The position numbers and the translations under genes were made by a program. From NCBI GenBank assembly GCA_964016885.1, contig OZ024741.1, positions 96,224,001 to 96,288,000 of the forward strand: a DNA stretch of 64,000 nt, given 5' to 3'. Below the pieces are notes generated by a model. The model saw nothing but the letters and a program-made list of their open reading frames with translations. It was not told where the DNA came from and made no database searches. Shown one piece after another: positions 10,121 through 62,898 of this stretch (position 1 is the stretch's first letter; every line of letters begins with the position of its first letter). Source of the DNA: Eledone cirrhosa (lineage: Eukaryota).

Positions 10121-10181
<61 letters not shown>

Positions 10182-10418
10182 ATATATATAAATATATATA
10201 TATATATATATTATTATATTTGGGGAGGGTCATATTAGTGTAATATTGCCAGAATTAATAACAGAACACACTCACTGTTTGGTTGGTTTTCGCTTCTCGC
10301 TTCTGTGTCTTTTATATCGGTAATCTAACTTACTCGGTCCTCAATGTTGCCATTGACTGACCGACGGTCAAAAATAATACAGATGCAATATAGACACAAA
10401 CACATATATATAGTTTAT

Positions 10419-10456
10419 CATAAATCTTTCGTTGCACATCTGCAACATCGTCAGTG
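10419..10456 (-). ncRNA. Minimal type I hammerhead ribozyme in the PLE-A pseudo-LTR
   Basis: CA CTGACGA T GTTGCA GATG TGCAAC GAAA GATT TA TG. Same strand as, and downstream of, the PLE ORF. Stem I is short. Confidence 0.7.
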
Positions 10457-10697
10457 GTGCTATCTTTTCCTCCTGTTGTATTGTATGTCTACGCCATTTT
10501 TATTCAGTCTGTCTATATATTTATTTATTTATTTGCTTGTTTGTTTATATGATTTTGTCTTCTTTGCGCATGCGTTTGCGTGTGTATATAGTGTTTTGTT
10601 TGCTGTGTGATGGGTGACTAGTGTGTGTTTATGTGCTTGTTGTTATTGTGCTTGTGTATGTATGTATTTATTTATTTATTTTATTTTATTTGCTTAT

Positions 10698-12436
10698 TTA
10701 TACTTCTCTTTGGTCAGTGTTGTTTGTTTGGGTGTTGTTGTTATTCCATTCATTCTTTCTGTTTAGTCTTGGTCTTCTAATTTCTATTTTACTGGCCTTT
10801 CTGATTTGCCTATCTGCTGGGTCATTTCTATGTTTAGATATTATTCTAATTTCTATGTTGTCTATGTTACCGTCATGTTGTTGTCTAGCATGTTCGTATA
10901 GTACTGACCCGTTTTTTTGTCCTTTTAGTTCCCCCCAGTGTTGGTCTATCCTTTCACCTATGCTACGAGCTGTCTCACCTATGTATGTTGTTGTCATGTT
11001 TCTGCAAGTACCCTCTGTACATCTTATGCTATAGACTACGTTTCTAGTTTTACAGTTTATCCGGGGGTTTACCTTACATATGATACATTTCCTATTGGTA
11101 CAGTGGGTTTTCTTAAAAGGGTAGGTTTTGCTGATGAGGGATTTTATGGTGGTTCCTGACTTTTCTACCACCTTAATTTTAAAGTGGGTCTTTCTCAGGG
11201 CCTTTCTACACTGGTTAGCTAATTTCCCTCCAGGGGTAGCGTCCACAAACATGACACTCTGGTATCTCTGGTTGTCGTACCATGAGGTGGCTTTCCCTAT
11301 CTTATGTCTAGCCCTATCTAAGCTATTCCATGATTTGCTCCTGTATAATGGGCAAATTCCTTTCATGTCCAGTTTTATGAGGGTCTTATACTTCTCCATG
11401 GCTCCTTCGTATACTCTGACTCTGTCTCTTTGGTTGTAGCCAGAGAACTGCATGCGGTTGATGAAGTGTTGGATGTGTCTTTCCATTTCTGTTGGGTCGG
11501 ACATGCGGGACACATTCTTCATCACTCGTACCAAATCTGCGATCAGAATATTAAACTTAGCACTACTGGACATTGCTGAGTTTTTGAGTATCAGGTATTT
11601 GGAGGCCATGGGTTTAGCATAATGTGAGTGGAGAATTTGGGCTCTCTCGTCTATAGTGTTAATCCAGAGTTCTGTGTCTAATACAGGTAGTCTATTGTTA
11701 GGGTGTTTGGAAGGGAAGTCGATAGTTACAGTTATACTCTGGTGTATGGAATTAGCTATCTGCTGGATGCTTTCCATCGTGCTACGTTCTAAATCAAACT
11801 TGTTAGTGCTCTCTAGTGGGGATGTTCCTATAACTATATTGATATCGTCTACATAACGAGAGTACATGATGAGGTCTATGGAGCTCTCATTAAGGAGATC
11901 TTTAAGTCTCCTTTCCCACCATACCATGAAAAGGTTGGCAACATCACCAGCTATGCTGACGCCGATGTCTGCTCCCTCATTTTGGGTGTAGATCTTCTCG
12001 TTGAACTTAAATATGTGGCCCTTTAGGGTAGTTTTGATACTAGCCCCTATTGCATGTGCGACCATTTTTCTTACCTGATCATTGTTTTGGGGGGGTCCGT
12101 ATAGCTTTGGTCCACCCAATCCACCTTCCCATGGGAGTCTTTTTTGACATTGAGGTTATGGTGGGGGGTCTACATCTTATAGTTCTACTAGGGCAGACAC
12201 GTCTAAGGTCATGGCTGTCTAGGTAGTCAGTGTCGTAGGTAAGTCTAAGTAGGAGGCCCAGTTCGTCTGTGTCGACGTCGCAGAACTCCACCTCACTCTC
12301 AATGATCATCTCCACACATCTTTTCACAGCAAAATCAATGTTAATGGATGGGTACAGTGACACCACATCCATGCTGCCTATTATGCTGTTGGATAGGTTC
12401 CTGTTTTTGTTGCACTCACTGATTCTCGCAAAACTA
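10698..12436 (-). pseudogene. PLE reverse transcriptase + C-terminal GIY-YIG endonuclease (one frameshift near 12100; N-terminus missing)
   Basis: [12 protein letters not shown] in the 12079-12582 frame, then GADIGVSIAGDVANLFM, RYVDDI, LPVLD, NVVYSIRC...YIGETAR...R..QH and a CCHH pattern in the 473-aa ORF. Confidence 0.92.
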
Positions 12437-12463
12437 TATATATATAAATATATATATATAAAT

Positions 12464-12508
<45 letters not shown>

Positions 12509-12523
12509 TATATATATATAAAT

Positions 12524-12568
<45 letters not shown>

Positions 12569-12773
12569 GATAAATCTACCAAGAGTTTACGGTAGTGTCC
12601 AATCCGTATGAAGAACTCAATGTAATCCGGATATCATGGAAAGAAGGGATGCATTCAAAAATCACATTCGGTGAAAGATAAACGGAATACAGTCAAGATA
12701 AAATATTAAAAAAATATTAAAAAAATAATGAATAAAACAATGAAACAGTTCCTTATATTAAACAAAAAAAGTT

Positions 12774-15769: not shown

Positions 15770-17501
<1,732 letters not shown>

Positions 17502-17509
17502 TATATATG

Positions 17510-19409
<1,900 letters not shown>

Positions 19410-19676
19410 AACGGAAAAAATGAAACGATATTTCATTTCCCACTCTTAGTACGGCTGTTACTTAAATATAAGTATGTACACGTACATACATATATGTATA
19501 CAGACGTACAGTAGTATGTATATATATATATACATACATGCACACATATATATATGCACGTATGGATTCACCGAACCTTTATTATAATGCTCGGTGTGTC
19601 TGTAAACAAACATCCCGTATTAAGCCGTAGTGTCTAGCAACCACCGTTGCTCGTTTGTTCAACACTGACAAAGGAA

Positions 19677-19717
19677 CGCTGTACTAGTTTCAAGCTTGTT
19701 AGCTATCGTCAGCAACG
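19677..19717 (-). ncRNA. Minimal type I hammerhead ribozyme (retrozyme-like unit)
   Basis: Reverse complement of the motif at 20354-20394. Confidence 0.85.
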
Positions 19718-20353
19718 TATACCTTCCTGCCAGATTGTTGAACGTATATACTTACCTTATGCCTATTAACGGCTGAGTAGCCCAATTTGCATATCGAGTG
19801 GGTTAATCGGCCGGGTGCACCGAAAACGATAAACGGAAAAAATGAAATGATATTTCATTTCCCACTCTTAGTACGGCTGTTACTTAAATATAAGTATGTA
19901 CACGTACATACATATATGTATACCGACGTACAGTAGTATGTATATATATATATATACATACATGCACACATATATATATGAACGTATGGATTCACCGAAC
20001 AACGGTGGTGTCTAGACACTACGGCTTAATACGGGATGTTTGTTTACAAACACACCGAGCATTATAATAAATGTTCGGTGAATCCATACGTGCATATATA
20101 TACGTGTGCATGTATGTATATATATATATACATACTACTGTACGTCGGTATACATATATGTATGTACGTGTACATACTTATATTTAAGTAACAGCCGTAC
20201 TAAGAGTGGGAAATGAAATATCGTTTCATTTTTTCCGTTTATCGTTTTCGGTGCACTCGGCCGATTAACCCACTCGATATGCAAATTGGGCTACTCAGCC
20301 GTTAATATGCATAAGGTAAGTATATACGTTCAACAATCTGGCAGGAAGGTATA

Positions 20354-20394
20354 CGTTGCTGACGATAGCTAACAAGCTTGAAACTAGTACAGCG
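20354..20394 (+). ncRNA. Minimal type I hammerhead ribozyme (retrozyme-like unit)
   Basis: CGTTG CTGACGA T AGCT AACA AGCT T GAAAC TA GTA CAGCG. 5-bp stem I, intact core, palindromic stem III (ACTAGT), GUA cleavage site. Confidence 0.85.
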
Positions 20395-20774
20395 TTCCTT
20401 TGTCAGTGTTGAACAAACGAGCAACGGTGGTTGCTAGACACTACGGCTTAATACGGGATGTTTGTTTACAAACACACCGAGCATTATAATAAATGTTCGG
20501 TGAATCCATACGTGCATATATATATGTGTGCATGTATGTATATATATATATACATACTACTGTACGTCGGTATACATATATGTATGTACGTGTACATACT
20601 TATATTTAAGTAACAGCCGTACTAAGAGTGGGAAATGAAATATCGTTTCATTTTTCCGTTTATCGTTTTCGGTGCACCCGGCCGATTAACCCACTCGATA
20701 TGCAAATTGGGCTACTCACCCGTTAATATGCATAAGGTAAGTATATACGTTCAACAATCTGGCAGGAAGGTATA

Positions 20775-20815
20775 CGTTGCTGACGATAGCTAACAAGCTT
20801 GAAACTAGTACAGCG
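20775..20815 (+). ncRNA. Minimal type I hammerhead ribozyme (retrozyme-like unit)
   Basis: Identical to 20354-20394. Confidence 0.85.
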
Positions 20816-21029
20816 TTCCTTTGTCAGTGTTGAACAAACGAGCAACGGTGGTTGCTAGACACTACGGCTTAATACGGGATGTTTGTTTACAAACACACCG
20901 AGCATTATAATAAATGTTCGGTGAATCCATACGTGCATATATATATGTGTGCATGTATGTATATATATATATATACATATATGTATGTACGTGTACATAC
21001 TTATATTTATTTATATATATATATATATA

Positions 21030-21108
<79 letters not shown>

Positions 21109-21110
<2 letters not shown>

Positions 21111-21296
21111 CGAAGGAAATGTGGTAAGGAACCAGGTGGACCATAACGCACCAAAGTACTCAATACTTAGGGTAGTAGAGTGGGTAATAGTAACAAGTAA
21201 GACCCCGACGGCTGAGCTCAAGCCGTTTCGACGGAAGAGTAGAGAATTAGCCGTCGAAACGGCTTGAGCGCAGCCGTCGGGGTCTTACTTGTTCCT
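21109..21296. mobile_element. Pseudo-LTR fragment of the PLE-D family with internal inversion
   Basis: 21109-21205 matches 41531-41625 and the reverse complement of 40620-40718. 21193-21235 is inverted at 21251-21293. Confidence 0.75.
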
Positions 21297-21529
21297 ATAT
21301 ATATATATATACATATATATATGTAGTATTAAGGATACTATTTATGGTTATGTATATACTAAAACCTTTTATAGTTATATATATTATAAACCCTAAACAG
21401 TGAAAGACAGTCATTTATTACTACCTTATTACCAGTAAGATAAATAGCTCAATGTAATAACATCAGTTGTTCTACAGAGCAGTTATATAGAAATTACATG
21501 AATCAAAGTTCTGTTCAAACCATTTATTA

Positions 21530-23763: not shown

Positions 23764-26823
<3,060 letters not shown>

Positions 26824-32573: not shown

Positions 32574-35500
32574 TGTTTCTTTTATTTGCCACTAGGGCAT
32601 CAAAAGTGGGACAAGTACAAAGGGGGGAGTTTACACAAAAAGGCGTCCTCAATAAGGAGGAGGCAATAACAAAATATAAAAATAAAATAAGATATAACAA
32701 AAAATAAAATTTATAACAAAATCCTCAATAGAGAGGAGGCGCCTTGGGGAGTCGCACACACCCCCAAAAAAAGTGTGCAACCCTTCTCCTCAGGAGCACA
32801 GAGAAGGGGTGCTCCCTTGGTCTTTCATCTTCCTCACCTATAGTCTGATGTAGAGTGAAGGCCCATTCACACGGGCCATTCTCGTCACTTTCACCCATCT
32901 TTCATAGAAACGGCTGGGGTGCAGCATCTCTCTCTCCATCCTGATCCTTCTTCCGAAATGATATCGGAAGAAACGGACCAGTTGTTGGCCAGAGAGAAAG
33001 GTGCCTGACCTCAGTCCTTTCAGACGCGTCCACCATACAACCTCTTTCGCCATGGCTATTACGCACAGAAACACCGCCTCTGCTTCATCTTTGAAGGGGG
33101 GAGGCGGCTTGATCATTACAATAGACTCGGTGGTCAACCAGATCGGTCCCACCCTTGACAGTAGTTGTTCGACATAGCCCCACAGATCGGCTACGCCCGA
33201 GCAGTGTACCAATGCGTGTGCAACGGTTTCCTCGTCGCACACGCATCTGGGACAGATCTTTTTGGCGGGGTCCCTACCCGGGTGCCCGTGTCTGTAGAGC
33301 CTTTCTCGAACGGGTAAAGCCCCTCGGTAGCACTGCCAGGCCAGGGACTTCTGGAAGTTGTCCATAGGTCCCGGGCTGAATGTCCTACCGAACAGGCTGG
33401 CCAGTTCGTCCTCCTCCATGTCTAGGGATTCTCCGAGGGCGTCGTCGCACCTGCTGCGTACCAGCCCTCTATAGAATGTTGCGGTGGAGTCTCCACTGAT
33501 AACCGGATCCGCCTGCCAGAGGGCGGTGAGCGCCTGGGCACACTCAGTGTGCCAGGCGCCCAGTTTTCTCGGTCTTTGCTTGACCCAGGATTGCAGCTCG
33601 GTGAGTGAGACGAGTCTGGGAAAGGTTCGTCTCACAAACGAGGCCCACACCGGTTGTCCGGTGAGGAATACGTAGAGGTGCCGTAGCCTTAATGCGTGTT
33701 TACGCATCATTAGCCACGGCATCCCCAGCCCTCCTTTCGAAGGGTGTTGACAGCAGATGGATCTCCTCACCATAGGAGCCCGCCTCTTCCAAAGGAATTG
33801 GAAGAGCGCGCGCTCCATCTTGGTGAGGGTTTCCCTTGGGCAGGGCACTACGGTCAGGCGGTAGTAGATGACGGACGCTATGTAGGTGTTCGCCACCTCC
33901 CCCCGACCTTTCAGGGATAGTTTGCAACTGGCCCACTTCTGGGTCAGTGCAAACACCCTGTTCGTAACCGCCGCCCAGTTTTTCTCCACCTGGAGGTCCG
34001 GTCCGAACCAGATCCCGAGCAACTTCACCGGGCCCTCCGTCCAGCGTCCGACGACGCCATCGGAGGGCATCGGTCTGCCCCTCCACGTGCCGAGTTGCAA
34101 ACCGATCGACTTGTCCCGGTTCAGCTTAGCCCCTGTGAACTTTTCGTACTCCTCCAGTAAGGTGCCGACCGCCTCGATTTCGGAGGCCGTCGACACCATT
34201 ACTGTCACGTCATCGGCGTAGGCCGACACCGCTTTCCGCAATCCCGGTTCCAAAGGGATGCCCTGCAACAACTCCAACTTCCGCAGTAGTGGCTCGAGAG
34301 TCAACACATACAGAAGGGAGGAGAGAGGGCACCCTTGTCGGATGGACCGCGCGATTTTGAACGGCTCCGAGAGGTAGCCGTTCACCTTGACCCTAGAGCA
34401 GATGCGGCTGCTGTGCATAGCAGTGATCCAGCCCCTGAAAACGGGCCCGAAGCCTGCCGCCGCTAGCACCGCATCCAGGTAACCATGGTCGACCCTATCG
34501 AACGCCTTAGATTGATCCAAGTTGATCAGAGCCCCACCAAAGCCGGGTTCGTTCCCAACCCTCTCTATGATGTATCGCATGAGGTGGAGGTTGTCATGAA
34601 TGGATCTGGACGGGATAGCGCATGTCTGCGCATCTCCCACCAGGTTGCCCACGACAAGCGCCAACCTCTTTGCTAGCACCTTGGCCAAAATCTGTAACTC
34701 TGTATTTAGCAGAGTTATGGGCCTGAAGTTACTTATTTCGTCCCCCTTGTTCTCGTCCTTCCTCACTAGCGTGACTACGCCCTTGGTCACAGTACAGGGA
34801 ATTCTCCCGTTCTGATGCCAGTTGCAGTAGACCGCCTCGAGGAGATCGGGGAACAAGTCCGGCATAGCTAGATATAATTCGTAAGGAAGACCATCGAGAC
34901 CCGGGGATTTGCGTTTGCCGCATTGGCTCAGCACGTCCTCTATCTCAGCGGCCGAAATCGGCTCCTCGCAGGACTTCGCCTCCCTGTCCGAGAGGCGCGG
35001 CAGGCCGTCGAGGTATGGACCGAAGTCCACGTTCCCAACCGGCTCCCCGCCCCTCCCGAACAGTCGGGCAAAGTGCCTTTGAAAGGCCTCACACATCTGC
35101 TTAGGCTCAAGAATCCCCCGTCCATCCAGGTCTCGCAAAGACCGGATGGTGGATTTAGTTCCACTCTTGGCCTCTGTCACGCGGGCCCAGCTAACAGCTT
35201 TGGTCCCCTCGTTCCCTAGAGCACGTATTTTACTTCGGACAACGCAGCCTTCGTGCTTCGCGTCGAAAAACTGGCTCAAAGCCGTTCTCGACGCTAGCAC
35301 TCTGGCCACGTCGCCGCTTCTAATTGCCTCTTCTACTCTATCTATTAGCTCCCTTTCCTTCCTATTCCTATCCGCAGCTAGAACCTTACTAAATTCTATC
35401 GAGACTACTCTAATCTCTCTCTTTAGAGATACCCACCACCTGCTGTTGACGATCGCTCCAGTCAACCGTTCCTTAACTAACGTACTAATCCGATTCCTGT

Positions 35501-36404
35501 AGGCTCTACTTGCCGGCAAGGACAAGTTGAGCTTCCAGTAACCGGGGCCCTGTCTATGAGTTCTGTCAAGGTTGACCATGCAGGTCACTAATTTGTGGTC
35601 TGAATAGCCAACCATGCGCATTTTTGGACAACTTAAAAAGTCCTTATCCTTAATTCTAACTAAGAACCTATCTAGGTACGACCTAGATGATCCGCTACGA
35701 TTTGCCCAAGTCCAGGTTGGCGCAGTCGGAAAATCTAGTCGATATCTATCGGCCAGGTCAAATCGACCGATTAACCCTTTGAGGCTATTACACCCCTCTC
35801 TATCGGGGCAGGCCCCTACGTAGTCCCAGCGTGCATCTAGGATACCATTCCAGTCCCCCACTAATAGCAAGGAGCGGGACGTCCCTAGAAAAGTCTCCAG
35901 ACGATGGAAGAAGTCCGGCCGCATTGACCCGAAAGGGCCGTAGGCGGCTACCAACCTAAACGCTCCGCCTTTACCACTGCCAAGGTCCAGAACCACTAGT
36001 CGACCCTCCGGGTCCAAATGTACCATCTGTGTTGCGAGACCCAGATGTTTTTGCAGCAGAACGACAACTCCACCCCCACCTCCGGGCTGACAGAGAGATG
36101 CGTGCATCTCAAAGTCATCAAAGGCGGGGGCCAGCTGTCGCACGTTGCTGATCCGGGCCTCGCAAATAACCATCACATCTATACGTTGTGACCTGAGGTC
36201 ATTTAGAAGCATTGCTTGCTTCCAAGTTGAGCCCAGGCCACGCGCATTTAAACAGCCTACTCTTAGCATAGCCATGTTGGTGGTGAAGAGAAACGGCACT
36301 TACCTCTCTGCGTCCCGGGTATCGGGCTGCACAATTTCCATTAGGGTGGGGGATGGGTTGTTGGGTGGGGTGGTGGTTTGTGGAAGTGTGGGGGCATCAG
36401 TGTG
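32574..36404 (-). mobile_element. L1-clade (Tx1-like) LINE copy B, 5'-truncated just upstream of ORF2
   Basis: Colinear with 2735-6508. TATCTATC is present at both junctions (element orientation), a candidate TSD. Confidence 0.93.
32838..36299 (-). CDS. Intact LINE ORF2: APE endonuclease, reverse transcriptase, C-terminal CCHC (1153 aa; first ATG at 36275)
   Basis: Uninterrupted ORF with LNARGL, GDWN, YLDRF, SDHK, DQSKAFDRVDH, RQGCPLS, YADD and CPRC..HALVHC. Confidence 0.95.
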   Translation of the reverse strand: MPFLFTTNMAMLRVGCLNARGLGSTWKQAMLLNDLRSQRIDVMVICEARISNVRQLAPAFDDFEMHASLCQPGGGGGVVVLLQKHLGLATQMVHLDPEGRLVVLDLGSGKGGAFRLVAAYGPFGSMRPDFFHRLETFLGTSRSLLLVGDWNGILDARWDYVGACPDREGCNSLKGLIGRFDLADRYRLDFPTAPTWTWANRSGSSRSYLDRFLVRIKDKDFLSCPKMRMVGYSDHKLVTCMVNLDRTHRQGPGYWKLNLSLPASRAYRNRISTLVKERLTGAIVNSRWWVSLKREIRVVSIEFSKVLAADRNRKERELIDRVEEAIRSGDVARVLASRTALSQFFDAKHEGCVVRSKIRALGNEGTKAVSWARVTEAKSGTKSTIRSLRDLDGRGILEPKQMCEAFQRHFARLFGRGGEPVGNVDFGPYLDGLPRLSDREAKSCEEPISAAEIEDVLSQCGKRKSPGLDGLPYELYLAMPDLFPDLLEAVYCNWHQNGRIPCTVTKGVVTLVRKDENKGDEISNFRPITLLNTELQILAKVLAKRLALVVGNLVGDAQTCAIPSRSIHDNLHLMRYIIERVGNEPGFGGALINLDQSKAFDRVDHGYLDAVLAAAGFGPVFRGWITAMHSSRICSRVKVNGYLSEPFKIARSIRQGCPLSSLLYVLTLEPLLRKLELLQGIPLEPGLRKAVSAYADDVTVMVSTASEIEAVGTLLEEYEKFTGAKLNRDKSIGLQLGTWRGRPMPSDGVVGRWTEGPVKLLGIWFGPDLQVEKNWAAVTNRVFALTQKWASCKLSLKGRGEVANTYIASVIYYRLTVVPCPRETLTKMERALFQFLWKRRAPMVRRSICCQHPSKGGLGMPWLMMRKHALRLRHLYVFLTGQPVWASFVRRTFPRLVSLTELQSWVKQRPRKLGAWHTECAQALTALWQADPVISGDSTATFYRGLVRSRCDDALGESLDMEEDELASLFGRTFSPGPMDNFQKSLAWQCYRGALPVRERLYRHGHPGRDPAKKICPRCVCDEETVAHALVHCSGVADLWGYVEQLLSRVGPIWLTTESIVMIKPPPPFKDEAEAVFLCVIAMAKEVVWWTRLKGLRSGTFLSGQQLVRFFRYHFGRRIRMEREMLHPSRFYERWVKVTRMARVNGPSLYIRL

Positions 36405-40479: not shown

Positions 40480-40718
40480 TCACTGGCAGTTTCAATCCAG
40501 GAAAATCCAGCCATAATATTATAGTAGAAAACAGTTGTTGAAGATGAAATGCAGTGGTATCGAAACCATGATTTATAAAACGAAATAGCTGCCGAAACAG
40601 CTTGAGCTCTGCTGTCGGGTTCCTGACTCTTTTTCTATTACCCACTCTACTACCCTAAGTATCGAGTACTCTGGTGCGTTATGGTCCACCTGGTTCCTTA
40701 CCACACTTCCTTCGTTAT
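40480..40718 (+). mobile_element. Pseudo-LTR fragment of the PLE-D family
   Basis: Matches 18110-18158, 21109-21235 (reverse complement) and 41655-41742; bounded by (TA)n. Confidence 0.75.
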
Positions 40719-41010
40719 ATATATATATATAACCAAAGCTTAATATAGTTAATTGATTACTCAATGAATATAGTTTTACAATAGATTAAAAGCACTCTAC
40801 AATGAAGTTTTCTGGAGTTATTAATATATATATATTATTCAAAATATTAATAAATGAAGACGTTCACATAATCAAAATATATGTTTTATTATATATATTT
40901 CGGAGGTACTGTGCTGTATTTTCAGTACGTCCACATCATTTTTCAATATATATATTGTTCATTTGCTTTAGTAATACTTTTTTTAAATTGTAAAGAGACT
41001 TTATGGATAT

Positions 41011-42022
<1,012 letters not shown>

Positions 42023-57505: not shown

Positions 57506-57628
57506 GCATAACAATATATATATATAAAATATATATAGAAGTGGTTACACAACAGTTAGTTCACCATACCGAGAACAATTGTTTCACCTTAGCGGATCCT
57601 CAGCTCGTAATGGACATGGTTATACGGA

Positions 57629-58119: not shown

Positions 58120-61100
58120 TCTATCTATCTATCTAAGGCGGGTAAAATTCCCGAGATCCATGGACGAGTTCTCTCCAGCGGTCTCTGTCCCCCATTATCG
58201 CTGCCATGTCCTGCGTCTCCAACAGACCAGTGTATGTCCTTAGGGCATCAACATATGTTAACCTTGGTCTTCCTCTTCCAGTGTGTCCATGTAGGGGCTC
58301 CCAAAGGAGCACGGAGTGCAATGTCAACTCTGGATGTCGGTGAGCATGTCCAGCCAACCTCAGTCTCCTCTGTGTCACTTTTGAGCTGACTTTTGGGAGG
58401 CTCCCATACAGCTCTGAGTTTTTCATCCTCAGTGTATACTGATTAATGTTCAGAGCCATCCTCAGCATTCTCGTGTAGCACCCATCCACCATCTGAGTGA
58501 GTCTCTTGGTCAGTGTCCAAGTCTCAGACCCACACAGCAGCACAGACTCCACTACAGCAATGAAGAGGCGGATTTTCAGGTCTCTACGAAGGTCCGACTT
58601 CCACACCGATCTCAAGCTGTGGCACGCCGCCCAGGCCTTGCTCTTCCTCTCAACCACATCATCTTCCGTATTCCCAATCTTTGCTCCCAAATACAGGAAG
58701 TCCTCAATCAATTCCAGCGGCTTCCCGCCTACATTAGTGATCCCCTCTGGCTTCTCAACATTCTCTACCAGATATTTTGTTTTAGTCTCATTCATTCTCA
58801 GCCCCACACTCATCGACACAGTCTCAACCTCCCGCATCAAATCCTCTGCCTCCTTCACTGTATTTGTCACCAAAACTATGTCGTCGGCAAATTCAGCATC
58901 CGATACCTTTTTCGCCCCAACTCTCCTGCTCTGAGCCGGTGCTACAGTAAAGCCAGAGTCCTGGTGTTTCTCCAGTGCAAGGCGCATACAATAGTCCACT
59001 ACGATGATAAAAAGGTAGGGAGCCAATGTATCTCCCTGGAGCACTCCAGCCAGTATCTCAAAGAACTCTGTCATCCCATCAGGTGTAATGACTTGGGCTT
59101 TGGTGTTGGTGTAGAGCAGTGATATCAGGTCCACTATCCTCTTGGGGATTCCATAAGCCTGTAAGATCTTCATCAGGCAGTAACGGTCCACAGAATCAAA
59201 GGCCTTCCTAAAGTCAATGAAAACCATGACCGCAGGAAGGCACTTTGCTCTAGCTCCCTCTAATATCCTCCTCAGCATCAGGATGTGACTGGTGGTTGAT
59301 CTACCCTCTCTGAAGCCGTTCTGGTTGTCCCTGAGCTTCTTCTCCATCTCAGGCTGGATCCTGTTAAGAATCATCCTGTTGAGGGTCTTTGCCACAAGTG
59401 ACGTCAGTGAGATCCCCCGGTAGTTGTTGGTGTTAGAGAGATCTCCCTTCTTTGGCACTGGGACGATGTTACTGATCCTCCACTGATTCGGGGCAACTCC
59501 TTTCTCCAGTGCCCCGTTACAGAACCCCAGGATGATATCATCAAAATCACACCACTTCATCACCTCTGATGCTACTCCATCTTCTCCATGAGCCTTGCCC
59601 TCCTTGATCTTCTTCTTGGCTCTCTGAAGCTCCTCTCTGGTGAAGGGCTCTGTCTCAACATCCAGTTCCTCAAACAGCCGCCTGATCTCCCCAGTGATCT
59701 GGGCTGTGGAGGGTGGCTCTCCTAGTAGGGTCCTAAAATGGTCTAGCCATTTCCTCTTCCTATCCTCGGGCCCCGTTCCCTGGATCTGACTCGAACACCT
59801 TTTCTTTCTCCCTGTGATCTCGTTGATGATCATCCAGCTCTCCTTACATCCAGATCTGTCAACCGCTCTCTCCACACTTCTGATCTTCTCTATCAGTGCC
59901 TCCTCTCTGACCTCAGTGTAAGCGGTACAGAGCTCTTCCCTCATCACCTCCACAGTCTCCATCCTCTCCTCCGTAGGATCAGCATAGAATTGGTCCCTGG
60001 CAGCTTTCAGGTGTTCTCTGGCTGCACACACTTTTGGGTCTGCAGAGCCGACGTGCTTCCCTTTGTTCTTTTTCCTCGGCACCAGGGTTTCACTTGCTTT
60101 CGCCACTGCATTGGTGAAGTGCCCGTACCTCCTCGTCACACTCTCCTCAGTCCATCCAATCTCTCTCTCCTCTGACTCTCCACACAGAGCACTAAACCTG
60201 TTTCTCACTTCCACTGTGAACCTCTCCTGTAGCTTATCATCTCCCTTGAAAGCTCCCCAGTCATAGATTGTTCTCCGGGGCTGAGCCTTGCTCTTTCTTA
60301 AGCTCACGCGGACCTCACTCATAACAAGCCGGTGGTCACTACCCAGTGTACTGAAATAGCTGTATGGTTCCGTGTTCAGAACACTATTCCGCCACTTTTT
60401 CCTCACCAGAATGAAATCAATCTGGGACTTGGACAGGTGCATATCTGAGATGTAGGTCCACATCTTCCCCAGATTCTTCCTAAACCTTAGGTTGGTCGCC
60501 ATCAAGTTCGCCTCCAGCAGGGTGTCTCTCAGTAGTCTTCCATTTCGGTTGGTGTTGTTATGGAAGTACCAGCAAGGATCTTCACTGCCCTCCTTACTCA
60601 GATGTGCATTGAAGTCCCCCAAAACAAGCAGGATATTGTGTGCCTGAGTGGTGTTGACAGCTCTACACACTTCCTCATGGAACTCCTCGGCATTCACATC
60701 ACTGTCCCCCTCGGTTGGACTATAGGCTGAGATGACTGTCAGTCTTGGGTTTCCATTGAAGGTCACCCTCAACACTCGCGGGGAGATAGGCATTATTTCC
60801 CTCACCAACAGATTGGTTTTTGCACTGAACACAAAACCCACTCCTCCTACTGCAGCATTTGTTGTGTTCTTCACTGCCGATGTAGTGATGAGCTGGCTCT
60901 TCCTCCCGATCATCACACTCCTCACGGGCTCATCGTGTAGAATCCTGTGTTCTTGGATCGCAAGTATCTGTATACCACTCTCCTCGAACAGATGTCCCAA
61001 CTCCTCTCTCTTCTCCAGCGTTCGAATAGTCCTCACATTCAAAGTGCCCATTTTGATGGCTCTTCTGCAGGACAAAACTGCATTCTTTATATTTGTCTCA

Positions 61101-61438
61101 GAGACAGCTGATCCATCATCCACTGGCCCTCTCTGTGGCTCTAAGCCAGCAGAGTCATAACGACCAGGCTGCTCCTTGACAGTGTAATTAGGGGCTCTAA
61201 CCCTAGTGCTGTTAGATCGACTCTCCATATTTCTTTTCAATGGCTGACAATACCTTACCGGCGCCACTCGAATAAGGTAGTTATTTAACCCATAAATGGA
61301 GCCCTAACAGGTACTACCACCCCGGGCCAGGGCAGACCTGGGAGTCATGACAACTAAGGGGTAACTCCATATTACCCACATCTCCTGAACTCCCGAACTG
61401 GAGCCTTGCCACTGGATGTAGTTTAATGTCATACCCAA

Positions 61439-62462: not shown

Positions 62463-62898
62463 AGTTATTACAGCAGACACAACACTATACACACTAGTCA
62501 CACAGCAAACATAACACTATACACACACGCAAACGCATGCGCAAAGAAGACAAAATAAAATAAACAAACAAGCAAATAAATAAATAAATATATAGACAGA
62601 CTGAATAAAAAATGGCGTAGACATACAACACACCAGGAGTAAAAAATATAACACCACTGACGATGTTGCAGATGTGCAACGAAAGATTTATGTAAATTAT
62701 GTAAACTATATATATGTGTTTGTGTCTATATTGTATCTGTAGTATTTTTGACCGTCGGTCAGTCAATGGCAACATTGAGGACCGAGTAAGTTAGATCGCA
62801 GATATAAAAGACAGCGAGAAGCGAAAACCAACCAAACAGTGAGTGTGTTCTGTTATTAATTCTGGCAATATTACACAAATATGACCCTCCCCAAGTAT

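What the first reader, a model, noticed from the sequence alone, without database searches (positions are those of the whole stretch)
19407..21010. Retrozyme-like system: ORF-less 421-nt tandem/inverted repeat with one intact hammerhead per unit
Seen: near-identical 421-nt units, three of which include CGTTG-CUGACGA-stem II-GAAAC-UA-GUA-CAGCG. There is no meaningful ORF, and each unit has many local hairpins (CACCGAGCATT/AATGTTCGGTG, AGCAAC/GTTGCT, AAATGAAA/TTTCATTT). About 1.4 units are inverted against ~2.3 units, all embedded in (TA)n. Established: animal non-LTR retrozymes are short tandem repeats with minimal type I HHRs whose palindromic stem III allows dimeric cleavage; they yield monomeric and circular RNAs and are thought to be mobilised by PLE RT, and PLE insertions often show a 5' inversion. 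Inference: this is a young non-autonomous retrozyme family producing a ~421-nt (circular) RNA. I do not know of one described for this sequence family.
Basis: partly seen in the sequence, partly recalled or inferred. Interest (0 to 1): 0.8.

Follow-up and report, generated by a model that had tools for sequence, protein, structure and literature searches.

The report
Ribozyme retroelement bearing Penelope insertion signature
This is one copy of a very abundant, young, non-coding repeat whose units carry a predicted self-cleaving RNA motif and a likely promoter, and whose insertion ends follow the two-start-site pattern of Penelope-like transposons, so these transposons likely copy it, probably from an RNA circle.

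Summary
In detail: 421-nt units, three canonical type I hammerheads, 1.4 units head-to-head with 2.4 units, set in (TA)n. It is a non-LTR retrozyme family: 1,740 exact copies of this hammerhead and 23,637 of its core in a 3.0-Gb genome.

New here is the insertion anatomy. Copies end not at the ribozyme cut but at two internal sites, monomer positions 216-219 (S1) and 274 (S2), followed by (TA)n. Head-to-head insertions carry one S1 and one S2 end in 39 of 40 classifiable cases. This is the Penelope-like-element (PLE) 'tail'. Intact Hydra-clade PLEs of the same genome show it in 8 of 8 insertions seen whole.

Arms cross the cleavage site (124 of 145) and the two arms share rare variants (6 of 30 versus 10 of 870), which fits one, probably circular, template. 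Each unit also matches the host's U1/U2/U6 promoter layout just upstream of the hammerhead (partly post hoc).

Not shown: cleavage, expression, circles, and which PLE family is the partner.

The parts
19407..20001 (-). Left arm, 595 bp: 5'-truncated at monomer position 105; 3' end at site S2 (position 274), joined to (TA)n
   Evidence: locus L002 is this window
19996..21009 (+). Right arm, 1,014 bp: 5'-truncated at position 29; 3' end at site S1 (position 219), joined to (TA)n; 20-bp deletion in the last unit
19996..20001 (.). Head-to-head junction of the two arms, with a 6-bp overlap (microhomology)
20390..20810 (+). One full monomer from predicted cut to predicted cut, 421 nt; predicted circular RNA
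   Evidence: folds; RNA not observed
20353..20395 (+). Canonical type I hammerhead 1: helix I 6 bp, CUGACGA, U.U plus 4-bp helix II, GAAA, palindromic ACUAGU helix III; predicted cut after 20389
20774..20816 (+). Hammerhead 2; predicted cut after 20810
19676..19718 (-). Hammerhead 3; predicted cut between 19682 and 19681
20597..20612 (+). S1 hairpin; insertions end in its 4-nt loop (monomer 216-219)
   Evidence: 17 of 18 identical between subfamilies A and B
20609..20663 (+). 'Tail' of 55-58 nt between S1 and S2 (internal copy); it is terminal at 19407-19465 on the minus arm and absent from the plus-arm end
   Evidence: contigs of run X1 leave the unit for (TA)n at the S2 site 20242
20264..20353 (+). 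Predicted snRNA-type promoter: ATTAA 20264, octamer ATGCAAAT 20279, TCAG 20295, TATATA 20321, predicted start 20351-20353
   Evidence: score 22.0; inferred, partly post hoc
20685..20774 (+). Second copy of the predicted promoter (TCAG changed to TCAC)
   Evidence: score 16.9
19718..19807 (-). Third copy of the predicted promoter
   Evidence: score 22.0
19144..19406 (.). (TA)n target tract, left
21010..21090 (.). (TA)n-like target tract, right

Best explanation
This is a young insertion of an abundant non-coding retrozyme whose units are likely transcribed from a built-in snRNA-type promoter, are predicted to self-cleave into 421-nt monomers that likely circularise, and are likely copied into (TA)n by a Hydra-clade Penelope-like enzyme starting at two internal sites. 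Steps: (1) Pol II would start about 38 nt upstream of the cut and read through the units (inferred). (2) Two neighbouring hammerheads would pair through their palindromic helix III and cut after GUA (predicted). (3) A host ligase would close the monomer (by analogy only). (4) A PLE endonuclease would break a (TA)n tract; one DNA end primes at S1 and the other at S2 (the ends are shown; the enzyme is inferred). (5) Each cDNA runs past the cleavage junction, stops at a random point, and the two are joined head-to-head by microhomology (the structure is shown; a circular template is inferred). (6) Arrays then change locally by duplication and conversion (shown by variant patterns).
For: Ends: in 40 loci taken in coordinate order from chromosome C1, 65 of 71 arm ends fall at 272-274 (38) or 216-223 (27). 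Over 107 loci, 145 arms end at S1 or S2 and 120 of them run into TA-rich sequence. Of 58 head-to-head rows, 41 had both ends classed: 40 S1+S2, 1 S2+S2, 0 S1+S1. One insertion was counted twice, so 39 of 40, p = 4e-11. The same two ends hold in subfamily B, 81-82% identical. PMC11167929 shows that PLE RT starts at two internal sites and calls the tail between them unique to PLEs. Intact PLEs with the Hydra motifs DKT and CxCX5C have the same architecture in (TA)n: 2 of 2 and 6 of 6 head-to-head insertions carry one short and one long end. Template: 124 of 145 arms cross the cleavage site; 5' ends are spread evenly, 3 of 145 within 8 nt of the cut. Rare variants are shared by both arms in 6 of 30 insertions versus 10 of 870 cross-locus pairs; in L038 every covering unit of both arms carries the same two private variants. 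Promoter: a four-block model from 9 host U1/U2 upstream regions scores the unit at a median of 22.0 over 144 units (host genes 20-31, leave-one-out); none of 682,014 background positions reached 20. Host U6 genes carry the same octamer upstream of a TATA box. Ribozyme: 95.6% of cells paired, with a U.G to G.U swap in helix I.
Against: No cleavage, transcript or circle was observed. No partner was identified: the unit has no significant similarity to PLE-A, -B or -F, and PLE-E, compared by eye, shares only short words and is older. Pfam named none of the PLE proteins, so the clade rests on motifs. 17 of 58 head-to-head rows could not be classed and were left out. 24 of 30 insertions share no rare variant between arms. 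L001, L008, L019 and L031 show unit-specific or one-arm variants that a single circle does not explain without later local change. A homogeneous linear multimer would give the L038 pattern too, and PMC11167929 found hammerhead cleavage dispensable for insertion in vitro, and no difference in start site between the two strands. The promoter match was seen by eye before the model was built, a single-block profile found nothing, one subfamily-C unit scored only 11.9, and octamer-to-TATA spacing is 42 nt against 46-47 in U6. Only 1 of 28 pairs shows a double change, inherited from one event. Core positions mutate as fast as the rest in young copies (9/772 versus 357/24,378).
Confidence: 0.62

Rival explanations
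1. Same PLE mobilisation from S1 and S2, but the template is an uncut linear multimer. The hammerhead is slow or incidental to spreading, and long arrays grow mainly by local duplication.
For: Helix III is weak and needs a dimer; 8 of 9 frog retrozyme dimers did not cleave in vitro (bioRxiv 10.64898/2026.07.22.740005). Unprocessed RNA was the dominant PLE substrate in vitro. Unit-specific and alternating variants occur in L001, L008, L018, L019. PLE-A forms multi-unit tandems with no hammerhead found by my pattern.
Against: 5' ends show no pile-up at the cut or at the predicted start. Helix I is kept by a compensating swap between subfamilies whose body is only 62% identical, so the fold is under selection in source copies. 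Coral, mussel and axolotl retrozymes accumulate as circles (PMC7229834).
Confidence: 0.26
2. The unit is the pseudo-LTR of an autonomous PLE not yet found, and these are its short stubs and locally amplified arrays rather than an independent non-autonomous family.
For: Hammerhead, tail and (TA)n ends are all pLTR features. In frogs 24 of 57 retrozyme families are similar to known elements, nearly all PLE termini. The genome holds many unexamined PLE families. Four loci have a PLE fragment fused at the 5' end (L017, L025, L029, L145).
Against: In 110 loci the unit follows itself at a 420-540-bp period and never sits in a fixed position beside an ORF. The four fusions involve different families, three or all in opposite orientation, and are within what a PLE-dense genome could give by chance. 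Three subfamilies evolve as whole monomers.
Confidence: 0.09
3. A DNA-level repeat (satellite, MITE or fold-back) or an assembly artefact, with a chance hammerhead.
For: The array sits in a (TA)n-rich region next to a 1-kb tandem duplication (17404-19409), and inverted repeats trouble assemblies.
Against: Thousands of dispersed copies with strand-specific fixed 3' ends, random 5' truncation and a one-of-each rule. The S2-(TA)n junction is in 39 contigs of a public run (it may be the source sample). The junction differs at every locus.
Confidence: 0.03

Closest known systems
Metazoan non-LTR retrozymes (Cervera and de la Pena 2020, PMC7229834; coral, mussel, axolotl)
   Same: Non-coding tandem unit under 50% GC, one canonical type I hammerhead per unit, stable branched fold, thousands of copies, PLEs in the same genome. 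The U.U at the base of helix II recalls axolotl HHR_Amex2.
   Different: Units of 420-540 bp are at or above the 150-450 bp range. No TSD can be seen; insertions target (TA)n, are often head-to-head and end at two fixed internal sites. The 2020 review (PMC7761336, passages) says metazoan retrozymes seem to have no promoter and no motif revealing the partner; both are suggested here. Expression and cleavage are shown there, not here.
Penelope-like elements: Poseidon PAc (Frangieh 2024, PMC11167929) and the Hydra clade (Craig 2021, bioRxiv 2021.04.23.441226)
   Same: Partial tandems, inverted 5'-truncated second arm, tail on one end only, two internal start sites, (TA)n targeting as in all Hydra families.
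   Different: No ORF. The tail is 55-58 nt (30-40 published; about 70-90 in this genome's PLE-A, -E, -F). No sequence homology to the four host PLE families examined.
Newt satellite 2
   Same: Tandem unit with a dimer-type hammerhead and, per a passage in PMC2220036 citing Coats 1994, an internal snRNA-type Pol II promoter.
   Different: The original paper was not available, so element order could not be compared. I found no PLE-type end analysis for it.
Xenopus retrozymes as PLE derivatives (Li 2026, bioRxiv 10.64898/2026.07.22.740005)
   Same: Concludes that retrozymes are non-autonomous partners of PLEs.
   Different: Its evidence is co-occurrence and pLTR homology in vertebrates; the parts I read analyse no insertion ends and no molluscs. 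Here the evidence is mechanistic footprint without homology.

Membership tests
Non-LTR retrozyme | Short non-coding tandem repeat, dispersed multi-copy | tested here: met
Non-LTR retrozyme | Canonical type I hammerhead in each unit, at least two consecutive units | tested here: met
   plus arm has two consecutive intact motifs
Non-LTR retrozyme | No LTR, PBS or PPT; GC below 50% | tested here: inconclusive
   No LTR pair in any locus map and low GC; PBS and PPT were not searched for
Non-LTR retrozyme | Self-cleavage in vitro | not testable with these tools
   needs transcription assay
Non-LTR retrozyme | Expressed as linear and circular monomers | not testable with these tools
   no RNA run listed
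Non-LTR retrozyme | Target-site duplication, when present longer than 4 bp | tested here: inconclusive
   ends lie in (TA)n, which hides any TSD
PLE-mobilised insertion | Two adjacent internal start sites; tail on one end only | tested here: met
   39 of 40 classifiable head-to-head insertions
PLE-mobilised insertion | Partial tandem plus inverted 5'-truncated copy | tested here: met
Hydra-clade PLE partner | (TA)n target and a co-resident intact DKT/CxCX5C element | tested here: met
Hydra-clade PLE partner | Shared terminal sequence with one autonomous family | tested here: inconclusive
   none significant for PLE-A, -B, -F; PLE-F shares only an 8-nt word at the short end; other families unexamined
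Autonomous PLE or its pLTR | RT-GIY-YIG ORF in fixed position next to the repeat | tested here: not met
   110 loci
Minimal PLE-type hammerhead (min-HHR) | Lacks helix III or canonical helix I/II sizes | tested here: not met
   helices of 6, 4 and 1-2 bp
snRNA-type promoter | Host proximal element, TATA-like box and start site at host spacing | tested here: met
   sequence match only, partly post hoc; single-block test negative
snRNA-type promoter | SNAPc binding and capped start site | not testable with these tools
   needs ChIP, CAGE or 5' RACE

The most novel reading that the evidence does not exclude
The unit is a self-contained three-module parasite: snRNA-type promoter, hammerhead, and two PLE start sites. 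One RNA circle is held by a dimeric Hydra-clade enzyme; each strand of a (TA)n break is primed at a different site, and both cDNAs roll round the same circle. That would name the enzyme class that spreads animal retrozymes from the insertion footprint alone, and explain why PLE insertions are head-to-head with a tail on exactly one end.
Probability: 0.4. Interest if true: 0.82.

Novelty: new variant of a known kind. Interest (0 to 1): 0.64.

Why it matters
Which enzyme spreads animal retrozymes, what transcribes them, and how PLEs build inverted insertions are open in the papers read. This family gives a direct genomic footprint for the first, a candidate promoter for the second and a strict one-site-per-strand rule for the third. 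It supplies a 421-nt template, two mapped start sites, a simple target and intact 717- and ~800-aa candidate enzymes, so the cycle can be tested in vitro. A small circular RNA that directs two-sided insertion into (TA)n may also interest genome-writing work.

Tried and rejected
Rfam search: only microRNA-type matches to TA repeats in the rows shown. ARAGORN: no tRNA in the 10 of 22 monomers displayed; a Pol III box A/B reading was dropped because box B is not kept in subfamily B.

Partner by homology: PLE-A, -B, -F gave nothing. PLE-E has a hammerhead and two ends but its copies are only 85-94% identical, too old for the youngest subfamily. PLE-B's second end was not found. Retrozyme/PLE fusions were not counted as evidence because chance is not excluded. 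Pfam named no PLE protein.

A single-block proximal-element profile was negative. A U6-like Pol III reading is disfavoured because T5-7 runs lie just before S2, yet arms contain S2 and the promoter; it is not excluded. L1-type twin priming was rejected because both arms end at fixed sites and overlap in sequence.

Sequencing runs: no RNA holder listed. Runs from other organisms hold the unit at low depth, and raw reads of organism D gave 1 and 0 reads in 1.9 Gb each, so presence in other species is not supported. A motif-based re-classification of ends gave 14 of 16 pairs one-of-each; it disagreed at L070 and L126. A dimer hammerhead energy could not be modelled; only the palindrome duplex was folded. 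Coats 1994 was not held.

Full report
Observation. The array is as described: period 421, with a 595-bp minus arm (19407-20001) joined head-to-head to a 1,014-bp plus arm (19996-21009), between (TA)n tracts. Three hammerheads predict cuts after 20389, 20810 and 19682. They have helices of 6, 4 and 1-2 bp with a palindromic loop, the 'canonical' type of PMC4209133 (passages), not the minimal type. No real ORF is present. The genome is 3.0 Gb in 1,796 contigs. I read it as octopus-like from a recalled SINE resemblance and its size; no call names it.

Family. The 301-nt query gave 292 candidates, of which the 40 scored were 97-100% identical. The exact 40-nt hammerhead occurs 1,740 times and a relaxed 34-nt core 23,637 times, both with 0 control matches. 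Monomers fall into subfamilies of 420-433 nt (94-97% identical to this one), 466-538 nt (81-82%) and an intermediate one at 87%. On 30 of 83 distinct hammerhead regions, chosen for diversity, 95.6% of cells pair and one helix I pair swaps U.G for G.U. This is a single inherited change, and the core is invariant partly because copies were found through it. Within young copies the core mutates at the background rate.

Insertion ends. Numbering from the cut, arms end at 216-219 (S1, in a hairpin loop) or 274 (S2). I fetched 40 of the 43 clusters among the first 100 listed matches; one was already held and two were skipped. There 65 of 71 ends were at S1 or S2. Across 107 loci, 145 of 222 aligned segments ended at S1 or S2; of the rest 8 were at locus edges and 69 elsewhere, many of them TA-repeat false hits. 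120 of the 145 run into TA-rich sequence. Of 58 head-to-head rows, 41 had both ends classed: 40 S1+S2, one S2+S2, none S1+S1; 17 were left out. With one duplicated insertion removed this is 39 of 40, p = 4e-11. This window obeys the rule: S2 left, S1 right.

Link to PLEs. Craig et al. (passages) describe partial tandems, an inverted 5'-truncated copy and a tail on one end, and define the Hydra clade by DKT, CxCX5C and (TA)n insertion. Frangieh et al. (parts 1-2 of 4) show that the tail is the stretch between two internal RT start sites and call it unique to PLEs. This genome has intact, near-identical copies of such elements: PLE-A (717 aa, 3,531-bp unit), PLE-B and PLE-F. PLE-A and PLE-F have two ends in (TA)n, and their head-to-head insertions seen whole carry one of each in 2 of 2 and 6 of 6 cases. 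PLE-E has two ends too but is older. The retrozyme thus bears the PLE footprint. It has no significant similarity to PLE-A, -B or -F and never lies in fixed position beside an ORF in 110 loci, so it is neither a known pLTR nor assigned to a partner. Pfam named none of these proteins.

Template. 124 of 145 arms cross the cleavage site, and 5' ends are uniform, with 3 within 8 nt of the cut. A cut linear monomer therefore cannot be the template. Both arms share a rare variant in 6 of 30 insertions against 10 of 870 control pairs, and terminal units differ by 76/4,002 within insertions versus 4,064/120,308 across them. In L038 every covering unit of both arms carries the same two private variants. 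This favours one RNA molecule for both arms, most simply a circle. Against that, 24 of 30 share nothing, gene conversion between arms could mimic sharing, several arrays have unit-specific or alternating variants, and a uniform linear multimer fits equally. Frangieh et al. found cleavage unnecessary in vitro and no strand difference in start site; the genomic rule concerns single events, which that assay did not link.

Promoter. An octamer, present in 20 of 22 monomers, prompted a comparison with the host's snRNA genes. A single 25-nt profile was negative. I then noticed that 9 non-redundant U1/U2 upstream regions share ATTA at -31 to -33, TCAG at 0, a TATA-like box at +23 to +27 and the start at +56 to +58, and that the unit has the same layout. 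A four-block model scores host genes 20-31 (leave-one-out), the three window copies 22.0, 22.0 and 16.9, and 144 units at a median of 22.0 (99 at 18 or more). Of 682,014 background positions 14 reach 18 and none 20. Two of six U6 loci shown carry the same octamer 46-47 nt upstream of TATA, against 42 here. The region is 55/63 identical between subfamilies A and B against 60/97 for the body. The predicted start lies just before helix I. The test is partly post hoc and the polymerase is undetermined; T-runs before S2 favour Pol II read-through.

Reads. No RNA run was listed. Run X1 shows the S2-(TA)n junction in 39 contigs but may be the source sample. Other organisms' runs are not credible holders.

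Comparison with print. Cervera and de la Pena 2020 (passages, Results parts 1-2 of 3, Discussion; supplements not read, and its Figure S9 model may bear on this) call PLEs a strong candidate. The 2020 review (passages) states that no promoter and no partner-revealing motif are known. Li et al. 2026 (parts 1-3 of 5; supplements closed) add co-occurrence and pLTR homology in frogs. Newt satellite 2 has an snRNA-type promoter by a passage in PMC2220036; the original was not held. Arkhipova 2013 (passages) proposed self-priming on an antisense template for head-to-head structures; fixed sense-strand ends on both arms fit two sense primings better. Eight searches listed no paper on a cephalopod retrozyme or on tail ends in retrozymes; the library lacks most subscription journals and Repbase was not searchable.

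Verdict. It works like, and by sequence criteria is, a non-LTR retrozyme; cleavage and circles are untested. Mobilisation by a PLE is well supported (about 0.9), Hydra clade about 0.75, a circular template about 0.6, the promoter about 0.65. New variant of a known kind; interest 0.64.

Noticed in passing
L184:1990-2560 (-); loci L228-L237: A second, older, unrelated hammerhead family (32 exact matches) with the same design: repeated octamers, a TCAGTCAC element like host U2, a hammerhead, then two alternative ends in (TA)n; its short end shares TTACATTTA with subfamily B's S1. It scored only 6.8 on the promoter model.
   Followed up: partly
window 41012-41760, 21091-21298, 19076-19143, 40593-40731: Pieces of PLE-A, a very young Hydra-type PLE with many identical intact 717-aa ORFs and full multi-unit tandems (period 3,531 bp), with no hammerhead found by my pattern although Hydra elements are said always to have one.
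   Followed up: partly
window 15910-17739 (-): 5'-truncated Hydra-type PLE-B, interrupted by a (TA)n tract and a SINE; intact relatives of about 810 aa exist.
   Followed up: partly
window 23804-26712: Older head-to-head PLE with unequal ends (tail about 165 nt) in (TA)n.
   Followed up: no
window 10163-12633 (-): Another PLE (different RT motif) with a hammerhead-like motif at 10423-10454 in its 3' region, repeated at 62657.
   Followed up: no
window 55561, 57577 (-), 61807 (-): Further hammerhead motifs of other families; the one at 57577 belongs to the PLE-E pLTR.
   Followed up: partly
window 17404-19409: 989-bp tandem duplication directly left of the array, containing a ~240-bp palindrome and a PLE-A stub; possibly an assembly or slippage product.
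   Followed up: no
L190-L215: Host U1 and U2 genes carry a TATA-like box near -30 and no distal octamer within 400 bp (1 exception), whereas some U6 genes carry the octamer at -77: unlike the vertebrate layout as I recall it.
   Followed up: partly
L029, L145: Fusions of retrozyme and PLE sequence; L029 looks like a template switch at a short microhomology and L145 like a fusion recopied as an inverted pair.
   Followed up: partly
window 32838-36299 (-), 58133-61303 (-): Intact-looking 1,153-aa and 1,056-aa LINE ORFs (endonuclease plus RT).
   Followed up: no
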